DNA of 64,000 bases from Halioglobus sp. (GTDB lineage Bacteria; Pseudomonadota; Gammaproteobacteria; Pseudomonadales; Halieaceae): contig JAWKZK010000011.1 of NCBI GenBank assembly GCA_041396005.1, positions 67,779 to 131,778 on the forward strand, in the 5' to 3' direction. The notes below the pieces were generated by a model that was not told the origin of the DNA, did no database searches, and worked only from the letters and a program-made list of their open reading frames with translations. A program made the translations under genes and the position numbers. Below, piece after piece: positions 55,605-64,000 of this stretch (position 1 is its first letter; every line of letters begins with the position of its first letter).

Positions 55605-56546
55605 ATGCGAATGAGCCTGCGCAGTCCAGGCTTGCTGCTTTCCCTGTTTGCGGTCTGCGCGCTGGTCATGCCGGTTCAGGCACAGTGTCAGGGCGGCAGC
55701 TTTGAAGTACATGCTGTGCACATTTCGCCGGCTGTCGTCATTGAGGAGCAGCCCGTCACGGTGACGGTAACGGGCTTCAACCTGCTGGCGGGCGGTTTTG
55801 AGCCATACCAGGGCAGCCTGCTGATCGCCGATCCGGCGCTGTACGACGTGGCGGTGGAAGGCGCCCGAGTGACACTCACTTATCAGGAGCCGATCTGGGA
55901 TCTGTGTATAGATCCCACACCGCCCTTGGGCGCCAATTACCCGCAGCGGCGGCAGTTTCAGCTGCCGGGCCTGGCGGAGGGAGATTACCTGCTGGTAGTG
56001 GACTACGGCATCGCGCGCAACTGCGGTGGCACCGTTTCTCAGAGCGTCGAGCGGAAGTTGAGGGTTTACCGGGAGGAGCCCGCGCAGCGGCTTTTCAATC
56101 ATGAAACCCCCGAGCAGGGTCAAACGGTGAGCGGTGTGGGTCTCATTCGCGGCTGGGTGTGCTACAACGATGATTGGCGGGCGGGTGGCACGGCGCCAGT
56201 GGTGAGCAGCCTCGGCTACCGAGTGGATAACGGGCCGGTAAAGGCTCTGGCCGCCGGCACCAGCCGAACAGATACTGCGTCAGTGTGCGGCGAGTACAAC
56301 ACAGCCACGGGCTACGGCGCGGTGGTGTACTGGGGCAGTTTCGGTGTGGGCGAGCACGAGTTCACGCTGCTGGTGGACGGCGAGCCGGTGGAAACCACGG
56401 TGTTCAACGTGGTCGCGCCGCCGGAGGGTTTTCTGAAGGGTGTGCAGGCTGGCGCCACGGTGGCCGATTTTCCCGTCCCCGGGCGCAGCGTGCGCGTGGA
56501 GTGGTCCGAGGCGGACCAGAACTTTGTGATTACCGAATTTAATTAA
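55605..56546 (+). CDS. Exported hypothetical protein
   Basis: Signal peptide; C-terminal domain ETP..G.TVSGVGLIRGWVC...GTSRTDTASVCG...EWSEADQNFVI; not an integrase. Confidence 0.75.
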   Translation: MRMSLRSPGLLLSLFAVCALVMPVQAQCQGGSFEVHAVHISPAVVIEEQPVTVTVTGFNLLAGGFEPYQGSLLIADPALYDVAVEGARVTLTYQEPIWDLCIDPTPPLGANYPQRRQFQLPGLAEGDYLLVVDYGIARNCGGTVSQSVERKLRVYREEPAQRLFNHETPEQGQTVSGVGLIRGWVCYNDDWRAGGTAPVVSSLGYRVDNGPVKALAAGTSRTDTASVCGEYNTATGYGAVVYWGSFGVGEHEFTLLVDGEPVETTVFNVVAPPEGFLKGVQAGATVADFPVPGRSVRVEWSEADQNFVITEFN

Positions 56547-56550
56547 CGGC

Positions 56551-57660
56551 CTATTCGGAAACCGAGTTCCAGTTACCCTCCACATCGTCTATCTGAGATT
56601 CAACCCATTCACCCACCGTGACGCCTTCCACGGCCACGTCCAGCTCTCCCAGCAGGAAGGTGTGCGAGGCGCCCGGGGCGATGAAGCTGCGCATGCGTTC
56701 CGGGTTGCGGCTTTCCAGTTCCGCCATGGCGCTGCGCAGTATGGATTCAAACGCCGGGCCGCCGATGCCGAGGAAGAAGGTGCCGATGGTGAAATCCTGC
56801 GCGTAGCTGAGCATACCCAGGCGCACGTCCGGGTCTTGCTTGAGCTGCCAGTCGAGGAAGCCTGTGGGGTCGCCCTGCACGGTGCACTCGGCGCAGCTTG
56901 CCGGGAAGAAGCCGCCGATGTTCCAGTAGTCGATCACCTGCTGGTTGAAGGCCGCATCGTCGGGTCGGTTGATGCCTACACCTGAATCGTTGATCACGTC
57001 GATGGGTACGCCGGGGTACAGCTGGCGCACCAGCGGCAGCGCGAAGATGCTGCCGTAGCCGCCGCCGCTCACGCCGGCCAGCACGATGCGTCGCGGCGCC
57101 GGGAAGGTTTGTACCGCCACGTCCAGCGCGGCGGAGAGGTTGTGCAGCCCGCGGTGGAAGCGGTCCGGCGTGCCGTCTTCGTCCGAGTCTACGTCTGCGT
57201 CGCTGGCGAACAGGCCGCCGTCGCAGTAGGGCAGGTACACGGTGCTGATGCCCGCCAGCGGGTTGGCCGCCAGTGTCGGGTTGAGAATGCCGGCGCTGGG
57301 AATACCCGGTGCCGCGGAGGACGTGGCGGAACAGAAGTCGAACCAGCACGCGCCGCCGCCCTGCAGGAAGATCATCAGGTCTTCGGTGCCCTCGTCGCGG
57401 GTGGCCATGGTGTAGGGGCCGCCGTTGAGGCACAGCGGACCGTCGCCCTCACCGAACTGATGGTTGATCACGTTGCCGTCCGGGGTGCTCAGCATGGGTG
57501 AATACAGGCCGAGGTAGCGGGTTACCCCCTGGTCAATCAGTTCCTGGAAGGGCACCGCGTTGCCGCCGCCCGCGCCGTTGTCGTTGCCGTCCGAGCAGCC
57601 TGCGGCTGTCAGCGCCAGTGCTGCGAGTGAGAGAGCGCCTGCGCGGCGCAGGTGTTGCAT
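56551..57660 (-). CDS. Pectin acetylesterase-family hydrolase lipoprotein
   Basis: AAGC followed by SDGND; CLNGGPY, IFLQGGGAC, LPYCDG, GVSGGGYG, NDSG. Confidence 0.85.
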   Translation of the reverse strand: MQHLRRAGALSLAALALTAAGCSDGNDNGAGGGNAVPFQELIDQGVTRYLGLYSPMLSTPDGNVINHQFGEGDGPLCLNGGPYTMATRDEGTEDLMIFLQGGGACWFDFCSATSSAAPGIPSAGILNPTLAANPLAGISTVYLPYCDGGLFASDADVDSDEDGTPDRFHRGLHNLSAALDVAVQTFPAPRRIVLAGVSGGGYGSIFALPLVRQLYPGVPIDVINDSGVGINRPDDAAFNQQVIDYWNIGGFFPASCAECTVQGDPTGFLDWQLKQDPDVRLGMLSYAQDFTIGTFFLGIGGPAFESILRSAMAELESRNPERMRSFIAPGASHTFLLGELDVAVEGVTVGEWVESQIDDVEGNWNSVSE

Positions 57661-57807: not shown

Positions 57808-60579
57808 TCAGGGCTGGTAACCGCGCTGGATACCCTGGTCGATCCACTGGCCGATCACCTGACACTCCTGGCGCGTGGCGGAGGTCTTGTGCGCGGGCCC
57901 GAAATCGATGTCGTTGTCGTACTGCGCGTCCGTACGGCCGTCCTGTCGTGAGCCCATGCATTTCCAGTACAGCAGCGAGTCCCGCGCCAGTTTCGAAACC
58001 CACTTGCTGGTATAGGGGCGTGGCAGGCGGTAGCTGCCGTTCAGTGTGGGTTGGCGCTGGGCCCAGGCCCAGTCGATCTGGTCGTAGTCCCAGGCGATGC
58101 GTGAATCGAGCAGGCCGTCCTCGTCATGCATGTCGCCATGGCAGGTTGAGCATTTGTTCAGGAGGATGGGTTTCACATCCTCCCAGGTGGTGCGGAAGCC
58201 ATTGTTCGGCATCGGCCGGTTGCTGCGCGCGGCGATAGTATTGGCAAACCGCTCCTCGGCGCTTGCAGCAAGCTGCGCGGCGCGTTCCTCGGAGTGCCCG
58301 TCGTGGCAGCCGTGGCAGGTGCGCGTTTCGCCCTTCTGCAGCGAATGCAGCTTATCGTCGTGCGCGATGGTCATGCCGTCCTTGTCCTGGCCCACAATCT
58401 GCAACGGTGTCTCGCAGGGTACGCGCATGCGCACGGAACCGTCCGCCTCGATCGGCTGGTAGCCCTGCACACGCAGGCTTTTGAAGCCGTGGTTGTTGAT
58501 GGTGTTGGCGAATTCCTCCTGGTTGCCATCGGAGTAGCTGCGGTCCCACATTTCCACCTCGAACACCGTGAGGTAGTGCATGTTGCGCGCGTGGAAGCCC
58601 TTGTCTTCCGTGTTGATGGCGCAGCCCTGCGCAGAGCACTGCTGGTACAGCGTGCGTTCCCAGTCGTAGGGTTCGGCAGGCTGCAATTCGGCCCTGCGCG
58701 CGTCAACGACCTGAAGAAAACACGCGTTTCCAGTAAGGGGTCTGGGCCGCTCGGGCTCGGGCTGACCCCAGAGATCCTGGTAACTGGCCACTGCGTCGGC
58801 ATCATATACATGCCAGCGCGCATCGCCGGCAATTTGCTCCATCTGGCGTGTGTCAAATGAATCTGTCACCTGGTCTACTTTGACGCGATAGATACCTTTC
58901 TGGCATAGCGGCTCACCCCCCGTGTACTGGGCATTGGCCTTTTCGACAAAGGTGGCCTCGAAGCACAGGCCCCGGCCGTGGGTGATCATGTAGTCGTCGG
59001 TATTGGGCAGCGCGCTGGCATAGCCTGCCTTGCCCATCACCTTGCCGCTTCGATTCCGCCGCGGCTCGTGCGAGTCGGCGTCATTGCCATAAGGAGTCAG
59101 CGCGATGAAATCGGAGGGAATGTATTTTCCGGAGCCTTCCCGCTCGCTTGAGTAGATGCCGTGCTCGAAGTTATTCAGTCGCGAGATGCCCTCCACGCTA
59201 CCACCGCGATAATTGAACCCGTAAACGATTCCCATGCTGCCAACGTGATTCGCACGATAGTAGTTGGTGGCCGCGAGGTAATCCCTGCGGATCTCGGCGA
59301 CGGAGCGTACTGCGCGCAACGCGGATGCGCCTTCTCCGCCCGTGATTGACTTGTCAAGCCAATCTCGAGTTTTCAGCAGCGGACTGCCGTGTCCGCCGAG
59401 GACAACGCCACCTTCGGCACCATTGCCGTCCATCTGGCAAAGCCACCATTTATTGGCTTCGGTTCCCGGCGAGTTCGAGTGACGATTGGGACTGTCAAAC
59501 GCCTCGTTCGCGTGGCCATTCCAGCAGGAGTAGATGATGTCGCCGTTGGTCATCACCGTGGGCGACAGCGCCATGGTTTCGTGCGGCGTGAGATTCTTCG
59601 CACCGGTGCCATCGATCTTCATGGTCCAGATCTGCATGGCCTTGCCAGCATCGCGGTAGCCGTAGTACTGAGAGACGCCGTACGCCGTGCCAAACCACCT
59701 TGGCGTGCCGTTGGCGTAGCGCCCACGATGCTGGTTGAACTGGCTCTTGTGCGGGAACAGGTTCCCGCGATTGCTGGAAAATACCAGCGTGTTGTTGTCC
59801 AACCACTCAGGTTGGCGGTCTATACTTCTCCCATCATATCCTGGAACAGGCTTGCTCACGCCGCTGTCGAGGTCATAGATAAAAATCCTGGCGTGCGTGA
59901 GCGCGGGAATCTCCTTGATACCGAGCTTGACACGGCCATGGTAGGTATCCACCAGCGTGCTGGCGTAGCCCACGGAGTAGGCTATTTTTCGACCGTCCGG
60001 GCTGACTCTTGCCTCCTGCGCAACGCAGATGTCCGGCGATGTCGTGCAGTTATAGAGTACATGGACGTTTCCCTGCAGGTCGTCGAGCACAACATCCGCT
60101 TCGGCGATACCGCCATTGATGCGGCCGACATCGCTGGCGTGTTGCCAGCTTGAAGCATCCATAATGCTGCTGCCGGGCACGGGGTTAACGGCGCGCGGCT
60201 GGCGCGTGTAGACGATGCCTGTTGTCGGCTGAGGTGAGGTCACGGGGGGCGGGGTTGCGTCGGTCACGGGCGCGGGTGCTGGTGCCGGTGTGGGCGCGGG
60301 CGCGGGCGCGGGTGCTGGTGCCGGTGTGGGTGCAGGCGCTGGAGCAGGCGCTGGAGCAGGCGGCGCGGGTGGTTTGGCTGCCTCCGCTTGCTGTTGCGCG
60401 AGAAGGCGATGCAGATAATTCCCCCAGATGAGTTCGCGTAACCACTGCGGTAGTCTTTCCTGGTTTTGCACCAGGAAATTCTCGAACGAATTTCTAGCGG
60501 CAACCGGTTCGGTGGCAAACAAAGTGCCGAGCAATAGCACCACGACTGATGCGCGGATAAGGTGTTTGAACTGTATCAC
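57808..60579 (-). CDS. Large exported hydrazine-synthase-alpha-like protein (TolB-like propeller + HZS-alpha middle domain + two CxxCH)
   Basis: Signal peptide; (PA)n linker; ARVSPDGRKIAY; PIEADGSVRMRVP..P.Q...DKDG...LQKGETRTCHGCH; CSTCH. Start uncertain (60579 or 60606). Confidence 0.75.
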   Translation of the reverse strand: MIQFKHLIRASVVVLLLGTLFATEPVAARNSFENFLVQNQERLPQWLRELIWGNYLHRLLAQQQAEAAKPPAPPAPAPAPAPAPTPAPAPAPAPAPTPAPAPAPVTDATPPPVTSPQPTTGIVYTRQPRAVNPVPGSSIMDASSWQHASDVGRINGGIAEADVVLDDLQGNVHVLYNCTTSPDICVAQEARVSPDGRKIAYSVGYASTLVDTYHGRVKLGIKEIPALTHARIFIYDLDSGVSKPVPGYDGRSIDRQPEWLDNNTLVFSSNRGNLFPHKSQFNQHRGRYANGTPRWFGTAYGVSQYYGYRDAGKAMQIWTMKIDGTGAKNLTPHETMALSPTVMTNGDIIYSCWNGHANEAFDSPNRHSNSPGTEANKWWLCQMDGNGAEGGVVLGGHGSPLLKTRDWLDKSITGGEGASALRAVRSVAEIRRDYLAATNYYRANHVGSMGIVYGFNYRGGSVEGISRLNNFEHGIYSSEREGSGKYIPSDFIALTPYGNDADSHEPRRNRSGKVMGKAGYASALPNTDDYMITHGRGLCFEATFVEKANAQYTGGEPLCQKGIYRVKVDQVTDSFDTRQMEQIAGDARWHVYDADAVASYQDLWGQPEPERPRPLTGNACFLQVVDARRAELQPAEPYDWERTLYQQCSAQGCAINTEDKGFHARNMHYLTVFEVEMWDRSYSDGNQEEFANTINNHGFKSLRVQGYQPIEADGSVRMRVPCETPLQIVGQDKDGMTIAHDDKLHSLQKGETRTCHGCHDGHSEERAAQLAASAEERFANTIAARSNRPMPNNGFRTTWEDVKPILLNKCSTCHGDMHDEDGLLDSRIAWDYDQIDWAWAQRQPTLNGSYRLPRPYTSKWVSKLARDSLLYWKCMGSRQDGRTDAQYDNDIDFGPAHKTSATRQECQVIGQWIDQGIQRGYQP
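60265..60375 (-). repeat. Pro-Ala/Thr low-complexity linker
   Basis: Encodes PPAPPAPAPAPAPAPTPAPAPAPAPAPTPAPAPAP. Confidence 0.9.
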
Positions 60580-60889
60580 TGCGAAGCCCCCGGGATCGTA
60601 TCCCATTTGTTGAAACGCAGGGCTGGCCCGGGTGCGGTTGGTTTTTTTTGCCGGGCTTGTGGGAAAGATGCTAACCGCTGGAAACGGAAAAAGATGGTTA
60701 ATTGTGCAGAAATCTCCACTCTTTTTTCTTATATGATGAAACAACCGCCGTTTATATCTGTGCTAATCCTGCGAGCGTTGAGAAGCGACGTCGAACTTGT
60801 GGGAAGGGTTGCCGGCGCGTGTGGCGTGCGTCGAGGGCGAGGTCCTGCAGGGCCCCAGCCTATGGCATCCGAAGGCCTTCTGTGTTTCA

Positions 60890-60908
60890 CTAAATGAGAA
60901 TAGTTTGC
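60890..60908 (+). promoter_or_regulatory. Probable Fur box
   Basis: CTAAATGAGAATAGTTTGC (11/19 to GATAATGATAATCATTATC), 42 bp upstream of an iron-binding protein gene. Confidence 0.65.
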
Positions 60909-60950: not shown

Positions 60951-62012
60951 ATGCGTGTCATCTCTTCGGGTTCCGGCTTGAGGCCGACCCTGCGTCGCTG
61001 TGCGGCGATATTTTGCGCCAGCGCCCTGAGCCTTTTGTGGGGCGGAGCGGCCGCCGGCAAGGAGTCGGTGAATGTCTATTCCGCGCGGCAGGAAGCACTG
61101 ATCAAGCCGGTGCTGGACAAGTTCACCGCGAGTAGCGGGATTGCAGTGAATCTGGTGACCGGTGATGGCGACGCGCTGCTGACTCGCCTGGCCAACGAAG
61201 GGCGCAACTCGCCCGCTGACGTGCTGCTCACGGTGGATGCGGGCAGGCTTTACCGTGCGCGCGAGGCCGGTGTGCTGCAGCCGGTGAAATCCGCGTATCT
61301 GGAGCAGGCGATACCCGCACACCTGCGCGACGGCGAGGGCTATTGGTATGGCCTGTCAGTGCGTGCTCGCGTGCTGGCCTACTCGAAAGAGCGCGTGAAA
61401 CCGTCGGAGCTCAGCACCTATGAAGCGCTCGCGGAACCCGCGTGGCGGGGCAGGATCTGCATCCGCTCCTCCGGCAATATTTATAACCAGAGCATGGTGG
61501 CGGGCATGCTGGCCACCGAGGGTGAGACGGCCACCGACAAGTGGTTGCAGGGCCTGGTGGCGAACCTCGCGCGGCCCCCGCGCGGCGGCGACCGCGACCA
61601 GATCAAGGCAGTGGCCGCGGGCCAGTGCGACGTGGCCGTGGTGAACAGCTATTACTACGGCGCCATGCTGCAATCCGAGGATGGGGCGGAGCGCGAGGCC
61701 GCGGCGGCGGTCGGCCTGTTCTTTCCCAACCAGCAGGGGCGCGGCACGCACATCAACATCAGCGGTGCGGGCGTGACCGCTGCCGCGAAAAATGTGGCCG
61801 GCGCCGTGGCATTGATCGAGTATCTCGCCACGCCCGAGGCGCAGCGCTGGTACGCCGAGCGCAACAATGAATACCCGGTGCGTACCGACGTGACTCCGGA
61901 TGCGCTGCTGACCTCCTGGGGTGAATTTAAAGCCGATGCCCTGGACGTCACTGAACTCGGCCGTCGCAATGCGCAGGCGGTGATGGCGATGGACAGGGCG
62001 AATTGGAAGTAG
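60951..62012 (+). CDS. fbpA: Fe(III) ABC transporter substrate-binding protein (FbpA/FutA)
   Basis: VNVYSARQEAL, SPADVLLTVDAGRL, ICIRSSGNIYNQS, VNSYYYG. Confidence 0.92.
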   Translation: MRVISSGSGLRPTLRRCAAIFCASALSLLWGGAAAGKESVNVYSARQEALIKPVLDKFTASSGIAVNLVTGDGDALLTRLANEGRNSPADVLLTVDAGRLYRAREAGVLQPVKSAYLEQAIPAHLRDGEGYWYGLSVRARVLAYSKERVKPSELSTYEALAEPAWRGRICIRSSGNIYNQSMVAGMLATEGETATDKWLQGLVANLARPPRGGDRDQIKAVAAGQCDVAVVNSYYYGAMLQSEDGAEREAAAAVGLFFPNQQGRGTHINISGAGVTAAAKNVAGAVALIEYLATPEAQRWYAERNNEYPVRTDVTPDALLTSWGEFKADALDVTELGRRNAQAVMAMDRANWK

Positions 62013-63703
62013 CGTCTACCTCCGCGCCTGCTCGCCGCGTGGCGGGCTGGCGCGCCGGTTTCGGCTGGCGCGCCGCGATGGTCGTGACGGCGGGCGTTAT
62101 CACGCTGCCGGTGCTGGTGATCGTCGGCAGCCTGCTGCAGGGCTTCAGCCCGGTGTGGCAGCATCTGCTGGATACCGTACTCGCGGACTACGTGCTCAAC
62201 TCGCTGCTCCTGATGCTTGGGGTGGGTGCCGGCACGCTGGTGCTCGGCGTGGGCAGTGCATGGCTGACCGCAATGTGCGAGTTTCCCGGGCGCCGCTGGT
62301 TCAACTGGGCGCTGCTGCTGCCCATGGCCATGCCGGCCTATATCATCGCCTACACCTATACGGGCATGCTGGATTACGCGGGCCCCGTGCAGACTGCGTT
62401 GCGCGAGCTGTTCGGTTGGCGCTTCGGGGATTACTGGTTCCCGGAGATACGCTCCCTGGGCGGCGCGGTGTGCATGCTCTCGCTGGTGCTGTACCCGTAT
62501 GTGTACCTTCTCACGCGGGTCGCCTTCCTCGAGCAATCCAGCGCCGTGCTGGAGGCGAGTCGCAGCCTTGGTCGCGGGCCCTGGCAGACGCTGTTCACGG
62601 TGGCATTACCGATGGCGCGTCCGGCGATTGCCGCCGGCGTCAGCCTGGCCCTGATGGAGACACTGGCGGATTACGGCACGGTGCAGTATTTCGGCGTGAG
62701 CACCTTTACCACGGGCATCTTCCGCACCTGGTATGGTCTTGGCGAGTTGCAAACGGCGGCACAGCTGGCGGCATTCCTGCTGCTGTTTGTGTTCGTGCTG
62801 TTCGTGCTGGAGCAGCACTCGCGTCGACGCCTGCGGTTTCATCCGTCTTCAGCACGGCAGTTACCGCGCCGGCTGCATCTGTATGGCTGGCGCGCAGCCC
62901 TGGCATGCACCGCGGCGCTGCTCGTGGTCATGGCCGGCTTTCTGTTACCCGCGGCGCGCCTCCTGGCCTGGGCGGTGGAGCGCGCGGGGCACACCGATTT
63001 GCCGGCGTTCGGGCAATTGATGGCCTCGAGCTTCGGGCTGGCCGCAACGGCGTCGCTGGCCTGTCTCCTCTGTGCGCTGCTACTGGGCTACGGCAAGCGG
63101 CTGCATCCTGGCCCGCAGGAGCGGCTCGCGGTGCGTCTGTCCTCCATGGGCTACGCAGTGCCCGGCACCGTGATTGCGGTCGGCGTGCTGATACCGTTTG
63201 CCTGGCTGGACAATCGTGTGGACGAATTCATGCGCGCGCAGTTCGGGTTGTCCACCGGGCTGTTGCTGAGTGGCACGCTGGCGGCGCTGGTGTTCGCATA
63301 TGTCGTGCGGTTCTTGTCGGTGTCGCTGCAAACGGTAGAGGCGGGCCTCACGCGTATCCGCCCGAGTATCGACGAATCGGCCCGTTCGCTCGGACATGCG
63401 CCGCTGGCGGTGTTTCAGCGTATTCACCTGCCCATGCTGAAAGGCTCCCTGGCCACTGCGTTGCTGCTGGTGTTTGTGGATGTTCTCAAGGAGTTGCCAA
63501 CCACACTCATACTGCGTCCGTTCAACTTCAACACGCTGGCGGTGCGCGCTTACGAGCTGGCGTCGGATGAACGCCTCGCCGATGCCGCGCTGCCCGCCTT
63601 GGCGATTGTGCTGATCGGCTTGCTGCCGGTGCTGCTGATGTTGCGCACCAGCAGCGCCGCCGACAGTACCGTGCGGCCCACCGCAGAGGCCGTCCATGCG
63701 TAA
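62003..63703 (+). CDS. fbpB: Fe(III) ABC transporter permease
   Basis: Two permease repeats with EASRSLG and ESARSLG EAA loops; LRPFNFNTLAVRAY. Start uncertain. Confidence 0.92.
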   Translation: MEVASTSAPARRVAGWRAGFGWRAAMVVTAGVITLPVLVIVGSLLQGFSPVWQHLLDTVLADYVLNSLLLMLGVGAGTLVLGVGSAWLTAMCEFPGRRWFNWALLLPMAMPAYIIAYTYTGMLDYAGPVQTALRELFGWRFGDYWFPEIRSLGGAVCMLSLVLYPYVYLLTRVAFLEQSSAVLEASRSLGRGPWQTLFTVALPMARPAIAAGVSLALMETLADYGTVQYFGVSTFTTGIFRTWYGLGELQTAAQLAAFLLLFVFVLFVLEQHSRRRLRFHPSSARQLPRRLHLYGWRAALACTAALLVVMAGFLLPAARLLAWAVERAGHTDLPAFGQLMASSFGLAATASLACLLCALLLGYGKRLHPGPQERLAVRLSSMGYAVPGTVIAVGVLIPFAWLDNRVDEFMRAQFGLSTGLLLSGTLAALVFAYVVRFLSVSLQTVEAGLTRIRPSIDESARSLGHAPLAVFQRIHLPMLKGSLATALLLVFVDVLKELPTTLILRPFNFNTLAVRAYELASDERLADAALPALAIVLIGLLPVLLMLRTSSAADSTVRPTAEAVHA

Positions 63704-64000
63704 CCAGTTGGAGCTGCGAGAAGTGACGGTGCGTTACGGCGAGGTCACAGCGGTGGATGCAGCGAGCCTGAGTGTGCAGCGGGGCCAGATCGGCTGTCTG
63801 TTAGGGCCGTCGGGCTGCGGTAAAACCACGCTGCTGCGCGCCATCGCGGGGTTCGAACCGCTCAGCGGCGGCGACATCCTGCTGGGCGGCGCGCTGATCG
63901 GTTCGCCGCTGGGCCAGGTGCCGCCCGAGCAGCGTCGGGTGGGTATGGTGTTTCAGGATTTCGCGCTGTTTCCCCACCTCGACGTGCGACGCAACATTGC
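63696..64000 (+). CDS. fbpC: Fe(III) ABC transporter ATP-binding protein, 5' part (runs off the window end)
   Basis: Hand-translated MRNQLELREV...LLGPSGCGKTTLLRAIAGFE...GMVFQDFALFPHL. Confidence 0.9.
   Translation, partial: MRNQLELREVTVRYGEVTAVDAASLSVQRGQIGCLLGPSGCGKTTLLRAIAGFEPLSGGDILLGGALIGSPLGQVPPEQRRVGMVFQDFALFPHLDVRRNI

What the first reader, a model, noticed from the sequence alone, without database searches (positions are those of the whole stretch)
57808..60579. Hydrazine-synthase-alpha-like diheme beta-propeller protein in a heterotroph, divergent from a Fur-controlled iron transporter
An exported protein of about 920 aa: short helical N-terminal segment, long (PA)n tether, TolB-like propeller, an HZS-alpha-middle-like segment, and two CxxCH motifs (58303-17, 58138-52), with many additional Cys. 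No hzsB/C or other anammox genes are present, so this is not hydrazine synthesis. Non-anammox HzsA-like proteins have no known function. A tethered, surface-reaching heme enzyme sharing an intergenic region with the Fe(III) ABC operon could act in redox chemistry or iron mobilisation (inference).
Basis: partly seen in the sequence, partly recalled or inferred. Interest (0 to 1): 0.65.

Follow-up and report, generated by a model that had tools for sequence, protein, structure and literature searches.

The report
Tethered hydrazine-synthase-like two-haem protein
A marine Halioglobus bacterium encodes an exported, tethered two-haem protein built like the alpha subunit of anammox hydrazine synthase; it cannot be that enzyme, its relatives are mostly paired or fused with esterases, and its place beside an iron transporter is a recent rearrangement.

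Summary
The gene at 57808-60579 (minus strand) encodes a 923-aa protein with these parts:
- a signal peptide, a helical segment and a 53-residue Pro/Ala linker;
- a TolB-like propeller;
- an HZS_alpha middle domain (Pfam 49.5 bits, cut-off 26.6);
- two CxxCH motifs at the stated coordinates.

An AlphaFold model (pLDDT 88) matches HzsA (PDB 5C2V_A) over its full length (E 5e-19). It is not hydrazine synthase. Tyr591 is replaced, no hzsB or hzsC exists in the genome, and the NCBIfam equivalog score is 41 against a cut-off of 800.

The neighbouring transporter is a true FutA/IdiA-type Fe(III) ABC system. The adjacency occurs in only 3 of 56 non-redundant Halieaceae loci, all close relatives. The "Fur box" matches 11 of 19 positions, which is no better than chance.

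The family-wide partner is a serine esterase, fused or within three genes in 40 of 56 loci. It is either a previously unnamed esterase-D/CE1-like domain, a BD-FAE esterase, or (here) a PAE-like lipoprotein directly downstream. Phages also carry the esterase-haem fusion.

My best reading is an envelope-tethered haem enzyme acting with an esterase on an unknown organic substrate. An iron-related role remains a minority possibility.

The parts
57808..60579 (-). HzsA-like two-haem propeller protein, 923 aa from the GTG start. An alternative in-frame ATG lies at 60606. The stop codon is 57808-57810.
   Evidence: ORF. Pfam HZS_alpha 49.5 bits. AlphaFold2 model plus Foldseek top hit 5c2v_A, E 5e-19. 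Orthologues at 66-84% identity.
60496..60579 (-). Sec-type signal peptide (V/M-IQFKHLIRASVVVLLLGTLFATEPVAA).
   Evidence: Read from the sequence. Equivalent signals occur in orthologues. Several orthologues instead have a lipobox plus poly-Gly.
60376..60495 (-). Helical N-terminal segment carrying the conserved motif LPxWL(R/Q)xLxW. It may be a docking or anchoring helix.
   Evidence: The motif is shared by the window, L001, L047 and L012. Sister lineages have a lipoprotein anchor in its place. The function is inferred.
60217..60375 (-). Pro/Ala/Thr-rich linker of 53 residues, the tether.
   Evidence: Orthologues have Pro/Asp/Glu/Thr-rich linkers of 60-150 residues after a lipobox.
58528..60216 (-). 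N-terminal beta-propeller domain with insertions (residues 122-684). It includes the invariant YYRxNHxGS motif.
   Evidence: Strand-rich model. TolB and S9-peptidase propellers are the next-best Foldseek hits. Invariant columns.
58294..58527 (-). Middle domain carrying the haem alpha-I-equivalent site. The motif is CHGCH (58303-58317) followed by the invariant DGHSEE, with His762 at 58294-58296.
   Evidence: Pfam match at residues 685-760. The profile alignment to HzsA places Ser590 opposite His762 and Tyr591 opposite Ser763. Invariant columns.
57811..58293 (-). C-terminal domain carrying the haem alpha-II-equivalent site. The motif is CSTCH (58138-58152), and invariant His897 (57889-57891) aligns with the HzsA distal ligand His772.
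   Evidence: Profile-to-5c2v_A alignment, E 5e-11. Invariant H748 in trimmed numbering.
56551..57660 (-). PAE-like (pectin acetylesterase/Notum family) lipoprotein esterase. Its start MQHLRRAG lies at 57660, the lipobox is LTAAGC, and the nucleophile elbow is G-V-S-G-G. It lies about 150 bp downstream on the same strand and is probably co-transcribed.
   Evidence: Pfam PAE 42 bits against a cut-off of 26.6. Conserved downstream of the orthologue in L001/L011, L047 and L046. No terminator-like site was found between the two genes.
60951..62012 (+). FutA/IdiA-type periplasmic Fe(III)-binding protein, transcribed divergently.
   Evidence: PDB 6g7n at E 6e-103 and 2pt1 at E 6e-101. SBP Pfam families.
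62003..64000 (+). FutB fused double permease (62003-63703) and the start of the FutC ATPase (63696 to the window end).
   Evidence: BPD_transp_1 twice, and ABC_tran. Same order in L001 and L047.
60890..60908 (.). Fur-box-like element CTAAATGAGAATAGTTTGC, upstream of futA.
   Evidence: Conserved in three close relatives. It matches only 11 of 19 consensus positions, no better than 92 other sites in the window.
60700..60765 (.). Conserved intergenic block with the direct repeat ATATAA-N17-ATATAA. It is an unassigned regulatory site or promoter region for the HzsA-like gene.
   Evidence: Three-way alignment. No Rfam match. No consensus sigma-70 promoter was called there.

Best explanation
SHOWN.
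- The gene encodes a Sec-exported c-type cytochrome with the complete three-domain architecture of hydrazine synthase alpha: propeller, middle domain with the haem alpha-I site, and C-terminal domain with a bis-His-type haem alpha-II site.
- The protein hangs from an N-terminal helix and a roughly 50-residue Pro/Ala tether. In sister lineages a lipoprotein anchor with a long Pro-rich linker takes that place.
- It has no beta or gamma partner, and it lacks the Tyr591 ligand.
- It belongs to a Halieaceae-rich branch of the large non-anammox HZS_alpha family.
- In that branch the recurrent genetic partner is a serine esterase. The partner is either a roughly 430-aa esterase-D/CE1-like domain (fused at the N-terminus, fused at the C-terminus, or encoded next door), a BD-FAE esterase, or, in this clade, a PAE-like lipoprotein encoded directly downstream.

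INFERRED MECHANISM.
- The protein is a periplasmic or envelope-tethered haem enzyme.
- The esterase first removes or opens an ester on an imported organic substrate of unknown identity.
- The alpha-I-type haem, at the interface of propeller and middle domain, then transforms the unmasked group.
- The alpha-II haem relays electrons to or from soluble periplasmic cytochromes. Single-haem relatives that lack the alpha-II domain argue that alpha-I is the catalytic core.
- The adjacency to FutABC is a recent insertion and most likely coincidental. It may at most confer iron-responsive expression on a haem-rich protein.
For: Architecture:
- Pfam match.
- Profile alignment to 5c2v_A covering chain residues 498-767 (about 525-794 in HzsA residue numbering), E 5e-11. 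Both CxxCH motifs and the His772 equivalent are kept, with no gap at positions 590/591.
- AlphaFold2 model, pLDDT 88, and a full-length Foldseek hit to HzsA.
- The cytochrome c maturation (Ccm) genes are present in the genome.

Tether: the N-termini of orthologues carry either the LPxWLRxLxW helix or a lipobox with poly-Gly and a Pro-rich linker.

Esterase coupling:
- The c18-like domain is fused in dozens of homologues of 1000-1500 aa, adjacent in L012, L013, L020-22, L062, L068 and L081, and C-terminal in P0220 and P0232.
- Its fold is that of esterase D, S-formylglutathione hydrolase and the CE1/CE7 esterases.
- The Ser-Asp-His triad is kept in 57, 65 and 64 of 69 copies.
- 40 of 56 non-redundant loci have an esterase fused or within three genes.
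- The PAE-like gene is conserved downstream in the window's clade.

Single-haem relatives: many representatives of about 650 aa match only profile positions 56-723. One example, P0130, ends just after CHGCHDGHS.

Catabolic contexts of the paralogues: DUF3604, sulfatases, TonB-dependent receptors, SDR, P450, VOC dioxygenase and a CrtI-like flavoprotein.
Against: - No substrate, activity or expression data exist for any member of the family.
- The window's own protein lacks the c18-like domain, and the genome has no free-standing copy of it. The esterase link here therefore rests on a different esterase family (PAE), which is unrelated to c18 by hhalign.
- Gene neighbourhood is only indirect evidence.
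- About 16 of 56 loci show no esterase within three genes. Some of these loci are cut by contig ends.
- A minority of c18-like domains have lost the nucleophile Ser.
- The model carries no haem, so the ligation could not be inspected: His759 versus His762, or a metal site like the HzsA zinc site.
Confidence: 0.5

Rival explanations
1. Iron acquisition. The tethered two-haem protein works with FutABC, either as a periplasmic ferric-chelate reductase or ferroxidase, or as part of a siderophore-dismantling step in which an esterase opens the chelator and the haem protein handles the iron or the ligand. Expression would be iron-regulated through a shared intergenic region.
For: - The divergent adjacency to a genuine FutA-type Fe(III) ABC operon is conserved in three related species.
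- A conserved Fur-like element lies in the intergenic region.
- The esterase-D fold of the family's partner domain is, from general knowledge, also the fold of the siderophore esterases Fes, IroE and PfeE.
- TonB-dependent receptors are frequent near the paralogues.
Against: - The adjacency occurs in only 3 of 56 loci, all at 81% identity or more. It is absent at 74% (L046) and at 66-71%.
- The Fur match is 11 of 19, at chance level, and lies next to futA rather than the HzsA-like gene.
- No siderophore esterase appears among the top 50 fold matches.
- The paralogue contexts (sulfatases, DUF3604, SDR, P450) are not iron-related.
Confidence: 0.15
2. Nitrogen-oxide or hydroxylamine chemistry inherited from the hydrazine synthase lineage. 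The alpha-I-type haem would bind hydroxylamine, NO or an N-hydroxy compound and detoxify or condense it in the periplasm.
For: - Full-length structural homology to HzsA.
- Unlike the published non-anammox clades I-III (PMC12758564), this clade has no two-residue gap at positions 590/591 and keeps the His772 equivalent.
Against: - Tyr591 is replaced by Ser, and His stands at the Ser590 position.
- The genome has no beta or gamma subunits.
- No nitrogen-cycle genes appear in any of the neighbourhoods inspected.
- The organisms are aerobic heterotrophs.
Confidence: 0.08
3. A non-catalytic electron shuttle or binding protein. The propeller would bind a partner or polymer, as TolB does, and the two haems would only pass electrons across the periplasm on a long tether.
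For: - The TonB-like Pro-rich tether and anchor.
- The TolB-like propeller.
- A bis-His-type second haem.
Against: - Single-haem family members that keep only the alpha-I site fit catalysis better than a relay.
- Many polar residues in the propeller are invariant, for example YYRxNHxGS.
- Fusion to hydrolase domains is typical of enzymes.
Confidence: 0.12

Closest known systems
Hydrazine synthase alpha subunit HzsA (kuste2861, 'Ca. Kuenenia stuttgartiensis', PDB 5C2V chain A)
   Same: - The same three-domain architecture: propeller, middle domain with the haem alpha-I CxxCH, and C-terminal domain with the haem alpha-II CxxCH and its distal His.
- Foldseek E 5e-19 with TM 0.55.
- Profile E 5e-11 over chain residues 498-767, about 525-794 in HzsA residue numbering.
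   Different: - About 13% identity.
- Tyr591 is replaced by Ser, and Ser590 by an invariant His.
- There are no beta or gamma partners and no anammox genes.
- The propeller is larger and has insertions.
- It adds an N-terminal helix and a Pro/Ala tether.
- The host is an aerobic marine heterotroph.
- The NCBIfam equivalog score is 41 against a cut-off of 800.
Non-anammox HzsA homologues, clades I-IV of Hagglund et al. 2025 (Genome Biol Evol, PMC12758564)
   Same: - Exported HZS_alpha-domain haem proteins outside anammox bacteria.
- The residues needed for hydrazine synthesis are not conserved.
- The function is unknown.
   Different: - Those clades were defined by a co-located fused beta-gamma gene, often with an FG-GAP/CRTAC1 gene, in mostly anaerobic taxa. 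This clade has no beta-gamma neighbour.
- The paper reports a two-residue gap at positions 590/591 and the absence of His772 for clades I-III. This clade has no gap and keeps the His.
- The partner here is an esterase.
Esterase D / S-formylglutathione hydrolase and CE1/CE7 carbohydrate esterases (fold of the family's partner domain)
   Same: - The c18-like partner domain has the alpha/beta-hydrolase fold, with best matches 7yvt, 3fcx, 3e4d, 7xmj and 5vol.
- It has a G-x-S-x-G elbow with a Ser-Asp-His triad.
   Different: - It has no Pfam or NCBIfam match.
- It carries an extra C-terminal beta-sandwich.
- It is absent from the window's own gene, where a PAE-family lipoprotein takes the neighbouring position.
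FutA/IdiA-FutB-FutC ferric iron ABC transporter (neighbouring operon)
   Same: - The binding protein matches 6g7n and 2pt1 at E 1e-103 and 1e-101.
- It has the fused double permease and the ATPase.
   Different: It is not part of the conserved neighbourhood of the HzsA-like family. It is adjacent only in three close relatives.

Membership tests
Hydrazine synthase alpha subunit (HzsA, functional HZS) | Three-domain fold: propeller, haem alpha-I middle domain, haem alpha-II C-terminal domain | tested here: met
   AlphaFold2 model with pLDDT 88. Foldseek to 5c2v_A gives E 5e-19 and TM 0.55 over the full length.
Hydrazine synthase alpha subunit (HzsA, functional HZS) | Score above the NCBIfam equivalog cut-off (NF052339, 800 bits) | tested here: not met
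   40.6 bits.
Hydrazine synthase alpha subunit (HzsA, functional HZS) | Tyr591 as the proximal ligand of haem alpha-I, four residues after the CxxCH histidine | tested here: not met
   The profile alignment puts Ser763 at the Tyr591 position and the invariant His762 at the Ser590 position.
Hydrazine synthase alpha subunit (HzsA, functional HZS) | Zinc site formed by His587 and Cys303 | not testable with these tools
   The N-terminal domain did not align at sequence level.
Hydrazine synthase alpha subunit (HzsA, functional HZS) | Bis-His haem alpha-II: CxxCH plus the distal His772 | tested here: met
   CSTCH at residues 810-814, and invariant His897 aligned to His772. This rests on alignment only, not on spectroscopy.
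Hydrazine synthase alpha subunit (HzsA, functional HZS) | Beta and gamma subunits encoded with it | tested here: not met
   NF052340 scores at best 37 bits against a cut-off of 560, and NF052341 scores 23 bits against 625. Both hits are on other contigs. None lies in the window's neighbourhood.
Pfam HZS_alpha (PF18582) domain family, non-anammox members | Match above the gathering threshold that includes the CxxCH of the middle domain | tested here: met
   49.5 bits against 26.6, residues 685-760. There are 2707 cluster representatives at E<=1e-3 with the family profile.
Non-anammox HZS-like clusters, clades I-IV (PMC12758564) | Alpha homologue co-located with a fused beta-gamma homologue | tested here: not met
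   No CCP/MauG-like or propeller-CCP gene lies beside either HzsA-like copy of this genome or in the 56 related loci clustered.
c-type cytochrome (covalent haem) | Export signal, CxxCH motifs, and a maturation system in the genome | tested here: met
   Signal peptide and two CxxCH motifs. CcmF/CcmC-type genes lie on contigs C19 and C22. Actual haem attachment cannot be tested here.
Fur regulon | A Fur box significantly matching the consensus in the promoter | tested here: inconclusive
   The best site matches 11 of 19 positions and lies next to futA. 92 sites in the window match as well or better. The site is conserved in three close relatives.

The most novel reading that the evidence does not exclude
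The esterase-plus-HzsA-like pair would be a self-contained, horizontally mobile (phage-carried) two-step periplasmic system. In the window's subclade it would have been recruited beside FutABC to dismantle acylated hydroxamate or ester-type siderophores. The PAE-like esterase would remove the acyl group and destroy the chelate. The hydrazine-synthase-like haem would process the exposed N-hydroxy or other reactive group. FutABC would then take up the freed Fe(III). This would give the hydroxylamine-binding haem of hydrazine synthase an ancestral-type role in ordinary aerobic heterotrophs.
Probability: 0.07. Interest if true: 0.8.

Novelty: new variant of a known kind. Interest (0 to 1): 0.45.

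Why it matters
Hydrazine synthase is one of the most unusual enzymes of the nitrogen cycle, and its origin is debated. Non-anammox relatives were described in 2025, mainly from anaerobes and always with a beta-gamma partner.

This locus differs in four ways:
- It is a stand-alone alpha-type protein in aerobic marine Halieaceae.
- Judged by alignment, it keeps more of the HzsA haem environment than the published clades do: the bis-His alpha-II site, and no gap at positions 590/591.
- Its branch of the family is genetically wedded to serine esterases, through repeated independent fusions.
- The module travels on phage genomes.

That gives a concrete, testable handle on what this large orphan haem-enzyme family does: esterase first, haem second. 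It also corrects an attractive but weakly founded iron-uptake reading.

Tried and rejected
- Rfam scan of the intergenic region: only a chance miRNA hit.
- RNA fold of the highly conserved leader, 60560-60680: z-score +0.9, so no structure.
- Consensus sigma-70 and terminator scans: nothing useful for the HzsA-like gene.
- Fur consensus scan: at chance level.
- NCBIfam naming of the binding protein was misleading. It gave weak 2-aminoethylphosphonate and thiamine hits below cut-off. PDB sequence similarity settled it as FutA.
- PAE-like protein against PDB by sequence: no hit.
- hhalign of the c18-like profile against the PAE-like alignment: probability 1.4%, unrelated. Against the Bdellovibrionaceae neighbour L079 (440 aa): probability 7.6%. 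The cross-phylum extension of the esterase pairing to that locus is therefore not established, and only a weak PF00756 hit at E 0.002 supports it.
- tblastn of the phage-context homologue against the GenBank phage collection: no match.
- Foldseek against viral structures: only generic propellers.
- Literature searches for DUF3604 and for PDB 8YZN: nothing informative.
Full report
**1. The observation**

An in-frame ATG at 60606 (MGYDPGGFAV...) is also conserved in two orthologues.

locates these parts:
- a Sec-type signal peptide (residues 2-28);
- a helical segment (residues 29-68);
- a 53-residue Pro/Ala/Thr linker (residues 69-121);
- CHGCH at 58303-58317 and CSTCH at 58138-58152;
- 12 further cysteines.

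Pfam finds the HZS_alpha middle domain at 49.5 bits against a cut-off of 26.6.

**2. Fold**

I built a 31-sequence alignment of homologues (A1). It gave an AlphaFold2 model of residues 150-923 with pLDDT 88 and pTM 0.91.

Foldseek against the PDB returns HzsA (5c2v_A) first, at E 5e-19 and TM 0.55 over the full length. TolB and S9-peptidase propellers follow at E of about 1e-7.

The family profile finds only HzsA in the PDB by sequence (E 5e-11). The alignment covers chain residues 498-767, about 525-794 in HzsA residue numbering. In that alignment:
- both CxxCH motifs are kept;
- HzsA Ser590 and Tyr591 align without a gap to the invariant His762 and Ser763 (motif CHGCH-DGHSEE);
- the distal ligand of haem alpha-II, His772, aligns with the invariant His897.

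The genome has CcmF/CcmC-type maturation genes.

**3. It is not hydrazine synthase**

- The NCBIfam equivalog scores 41 bits against a cut-off of 800.
- Tyr591 is absent.
- The genome has nothing above cut-off for hydrazine synthase beta or gamma. The best hits are 37 and 23 bits, on other contigs.
- No CCP/MauG-type gene lies next to the gene.

Hagglund et al. 2025 (PMC12758564) already reported hundreds of non-anammox HzsA homologues of unknown function. Their clades I-III were defined by a neighbouring beta-gamma fusion. They were reported to have a two-residue gap at positions 590/591 and to lack His772. The present clade differs on all three points.

**4. Organism and family**

Close homologues come from Halioglobus, Haliea and other Halieaceae.
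- PF18582 occurs in 23 of 81 Halieaceae genomes and in 15 of 40 genera. This is a patchy distribution.
- The window's genome has a second copy on contig C18, 1247-1251 aa long (by start codon) and 56% identical.
- The family profile finds 2707 cluster representatives at E<=1e-3 among 1.84 billion proteins.
- Many representatives are forms of about 650 aa that stop after the first haem. P0130, for example, ends just after CHGCHDGHS.
- That argues that the alpha-I haem is the functional core and the alpha-II domain an accessory relay.

**5. The iron link**

The divergent operon is a real FutA/IdiA-FutB-FutC ferric iron transporter. Its binding protein matches 6g7n and 2pt1 at E 1e-103 and 1e-101.

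I clustered the neighbours of 68 related loci and built a tree of 56 non-redundant full-length proteins. FutABC is adjacent only in the window, L001/L011 (81% identity) and L047 (84% identity). That is 3 of 56 loci.
- In L046 (74% identity) the GSDH gene directly precedes the HzsA-like gene. The PAE-like gene is still downstream.
- At 66-71% identity the upstream gene is an esterase-like gene.
- GSDH and a beta-lactamase-fold gene are older neighbours of this clade, so FutABC looks like an insertion.

The intergenic alignment shows a conserved Fur-like element about 45-60 bp from the futA start. It matches the consensus at only 11 of 19 positions, and 92 other sites in the window do as well or better. 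A second conserved block (about 60700-60765) nearer the HzsA-like gene is unassigned.

Iron regulation is possible but not shown, and a conserved functional linkage is not supported.

**6. The conserved partner is an esterase**

In orthologues at 66-71% identity, the gene directly upstream (cluster c18, about 430 aa) has no Pfam or NCBIfam match. An HMM built from it finds the same domain in several arrangements:
- fused to the N-terminus of dozens of HzsA-like proteins of 1000-1500 aa, including the genome's own C18 paralogue;
- fused to the C-terminus of others (P0220, P0232);
- as a separate adjacent gene in L062, L068 and L081.

Its AlphaFold2 model (pLDDT 81) matches esterase D, S-formylglutathione hydrolases, and the CE1/CE7 acetyl-xylan and feruloyl esterases. 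A Ser-Asp-His triad is kept in 57, 65 and 64 of 69 copies.

Other esterases also recur:
- Paralogue group B carries a BD-FAE/Abhydrolase_3 esterase convergent to the gene in 17 loci, and sometimes a further alpha/beta hydrolase.
- In the window's own clade the c18 domain is missing, and the genome has no free copy of it.
- Instead, a PAE-family lipoprotein esterase (Pfam 42 bits, lipobox LTAAGC, G-V-S-G-G elbow) lies about 150 bp downstream on the same strand. It is conserved in L001/L011, L047 and L046.

Altogether 40 of 56 loci have a serine hydrolase fused or within three genes. Repeated independent fusion in different orders is strong evidence of functional coupling.

**7. Other context**

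The paralogues sit among DUF3604, sulfatases, TonB-dependent receptors, SDRs, SnoaL-like proteins, a P450, a VOC dioxygenase, a CrtI-like flavoprotein and PqiABC. These are catabolic-island neighbourhoods rather than respiratory or nitrogen-cycle ones. No glycoside hydrolases were seen, so the substrate class remains open: an acylated lipid, phenolic, terpenoid or glycan.

**8. Anchoring**

- The window, L001, L047 and L012 share a signal peptide followed by a helix with the motif LPxWL(R/Q)xLxW and then a Pro-rich linker.
- Sister lineages (L013, L014, L019-L022) have a lipobox, a poly-Gly run and a Pro/Asp/Glu/Thr-rich linker of 60-150 residues.

The two devices look interchangeable, which supports the "tethered" reading. 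Whether the protein reaches the cell surface cannot be told.

**9. Phages**

- Homologues P0220 and P0145 lie on phage-like contigs (SU10 portal and adaptor, endolysins), just before SASA-esterase tail-spike-like genes.
- An IMG/VR contig (L082) has a replication initiator, HNH, a spanin and terminase subunits. It encodes a 1552-aa signal-peptide protein made of a c18-like domain plus an HzsA-like core with both CxxCH motifs.
- The module therefore moves as a unit, which fits its patchy distribution.

**10. Verdict**

This is a real gene and a correct description. It is a member of the known but functionally orphan non-anammox HZS_alpha family, in a stand-alone, tethered, esterase-coupled variant.

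My best mechanistic reading (confidence about 0.5) is an envelope haem enzyme that acts after an esterase on an imported organic ester, with haem alpha-II as an electron relay. The rivals are:
- the iron hypothesis, at about 0.15;
- nitrogen-oxide chemistry, at about 0.08;
- a pure shuttle or binding role, at about 0.12.

Earlier notes of this scan report many HzsA-like loci in other phyla with unknown chemistry, some with glycan-binding modules. They are consistent with this report but are not independent evidence.

Noticed in passing
L082 6033-10691 (IMG/VR contig); L080 8001-11945; L081 6442-10697: Phage or prophage contigs carry signal-peptide HzsA-like two-haem genes fused or adjacent to the c18-like esterase domain. 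The contigs have terminase, spanin, SU10 portal/adaptor and endolysin genes. The HzsA-like gene sits directly before a large tail-spike-like gene (a SASA esterase or an Ig-domain protein). A periplasmic c-type haem protein as phage cargo is unusual.
   Followed up: partly
L012 8175-9485 and relatives; N-terminus of L009 (own genome, contig C18): An unnamed domain family of about 430 aa with no Pfam or NCBIfam hit. It combines an esterase-D/CE1-like alpha/beta hydrolase with a C-terminal beta-sandwich ending ...GSLTLEGLTLxSSxxYTxLxV. A Ser-Asp-His triad is mostly conserved. A minority of copies have Asp or Gly in place of the nucleophile Ser.
   Followed up: yes
Own genome C3:218839-220743 (L084 5839-7743, minus strand): A 634-aa protein with a C-terminal CCP_MauG/RoxA-like two-haem part and a weak hit to hydrazine synthase gamma (23 bits). 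It lies beside a 561-aa unknown protein and an NMT1-type binding protein. It may be a beta-gamma-like protein, and it is unlinked to both HzsA-like genes.
   Followed up: partly
window 60700-60765: An intergenic block almost identical in three species. It contains the direct repeat ATATAA-N17-ATATAA, about 120-180 bp upstream of the HzsA-like start. It is probably a regulator site or promoter. It has no Rfam match and no consensus sigma-70 call.
   Followed up: partly
window 55605-56546 (+): A secreted 313-aa protein with no family match, convergent with the PAE-like gene. It is conserved in L001/L011 but not in L047. In the window the integron cassette array begins just beyond it, where the relative L001 has eight unrelated genes before the shared Coq4-like gene.
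   Followed up: no
L085 1611-4077 (own genome, contig C18): The TonB-dependent receptor next to the paralogue's BD-FAE esterase is split into two ORFs, Plug (415 aa) and barrel (394 aa). This is either a frameshift or an assembly error.
   Followed up: no
Paralogue loci L005, L006, L029-L045 and others: A strongly conserved block: an HAD hydrolase, two unknown genes, PqiA-PqiA-PqiB(MlaD)-PqiC, and DUF3604 divergent from the HzsA-like gene. BD-FAE, a TonB-dependent receptor, SnoaL, SDR and sulfatases follow. DUF3604 has no characterised member in the searched literature.
   Followed up: partly
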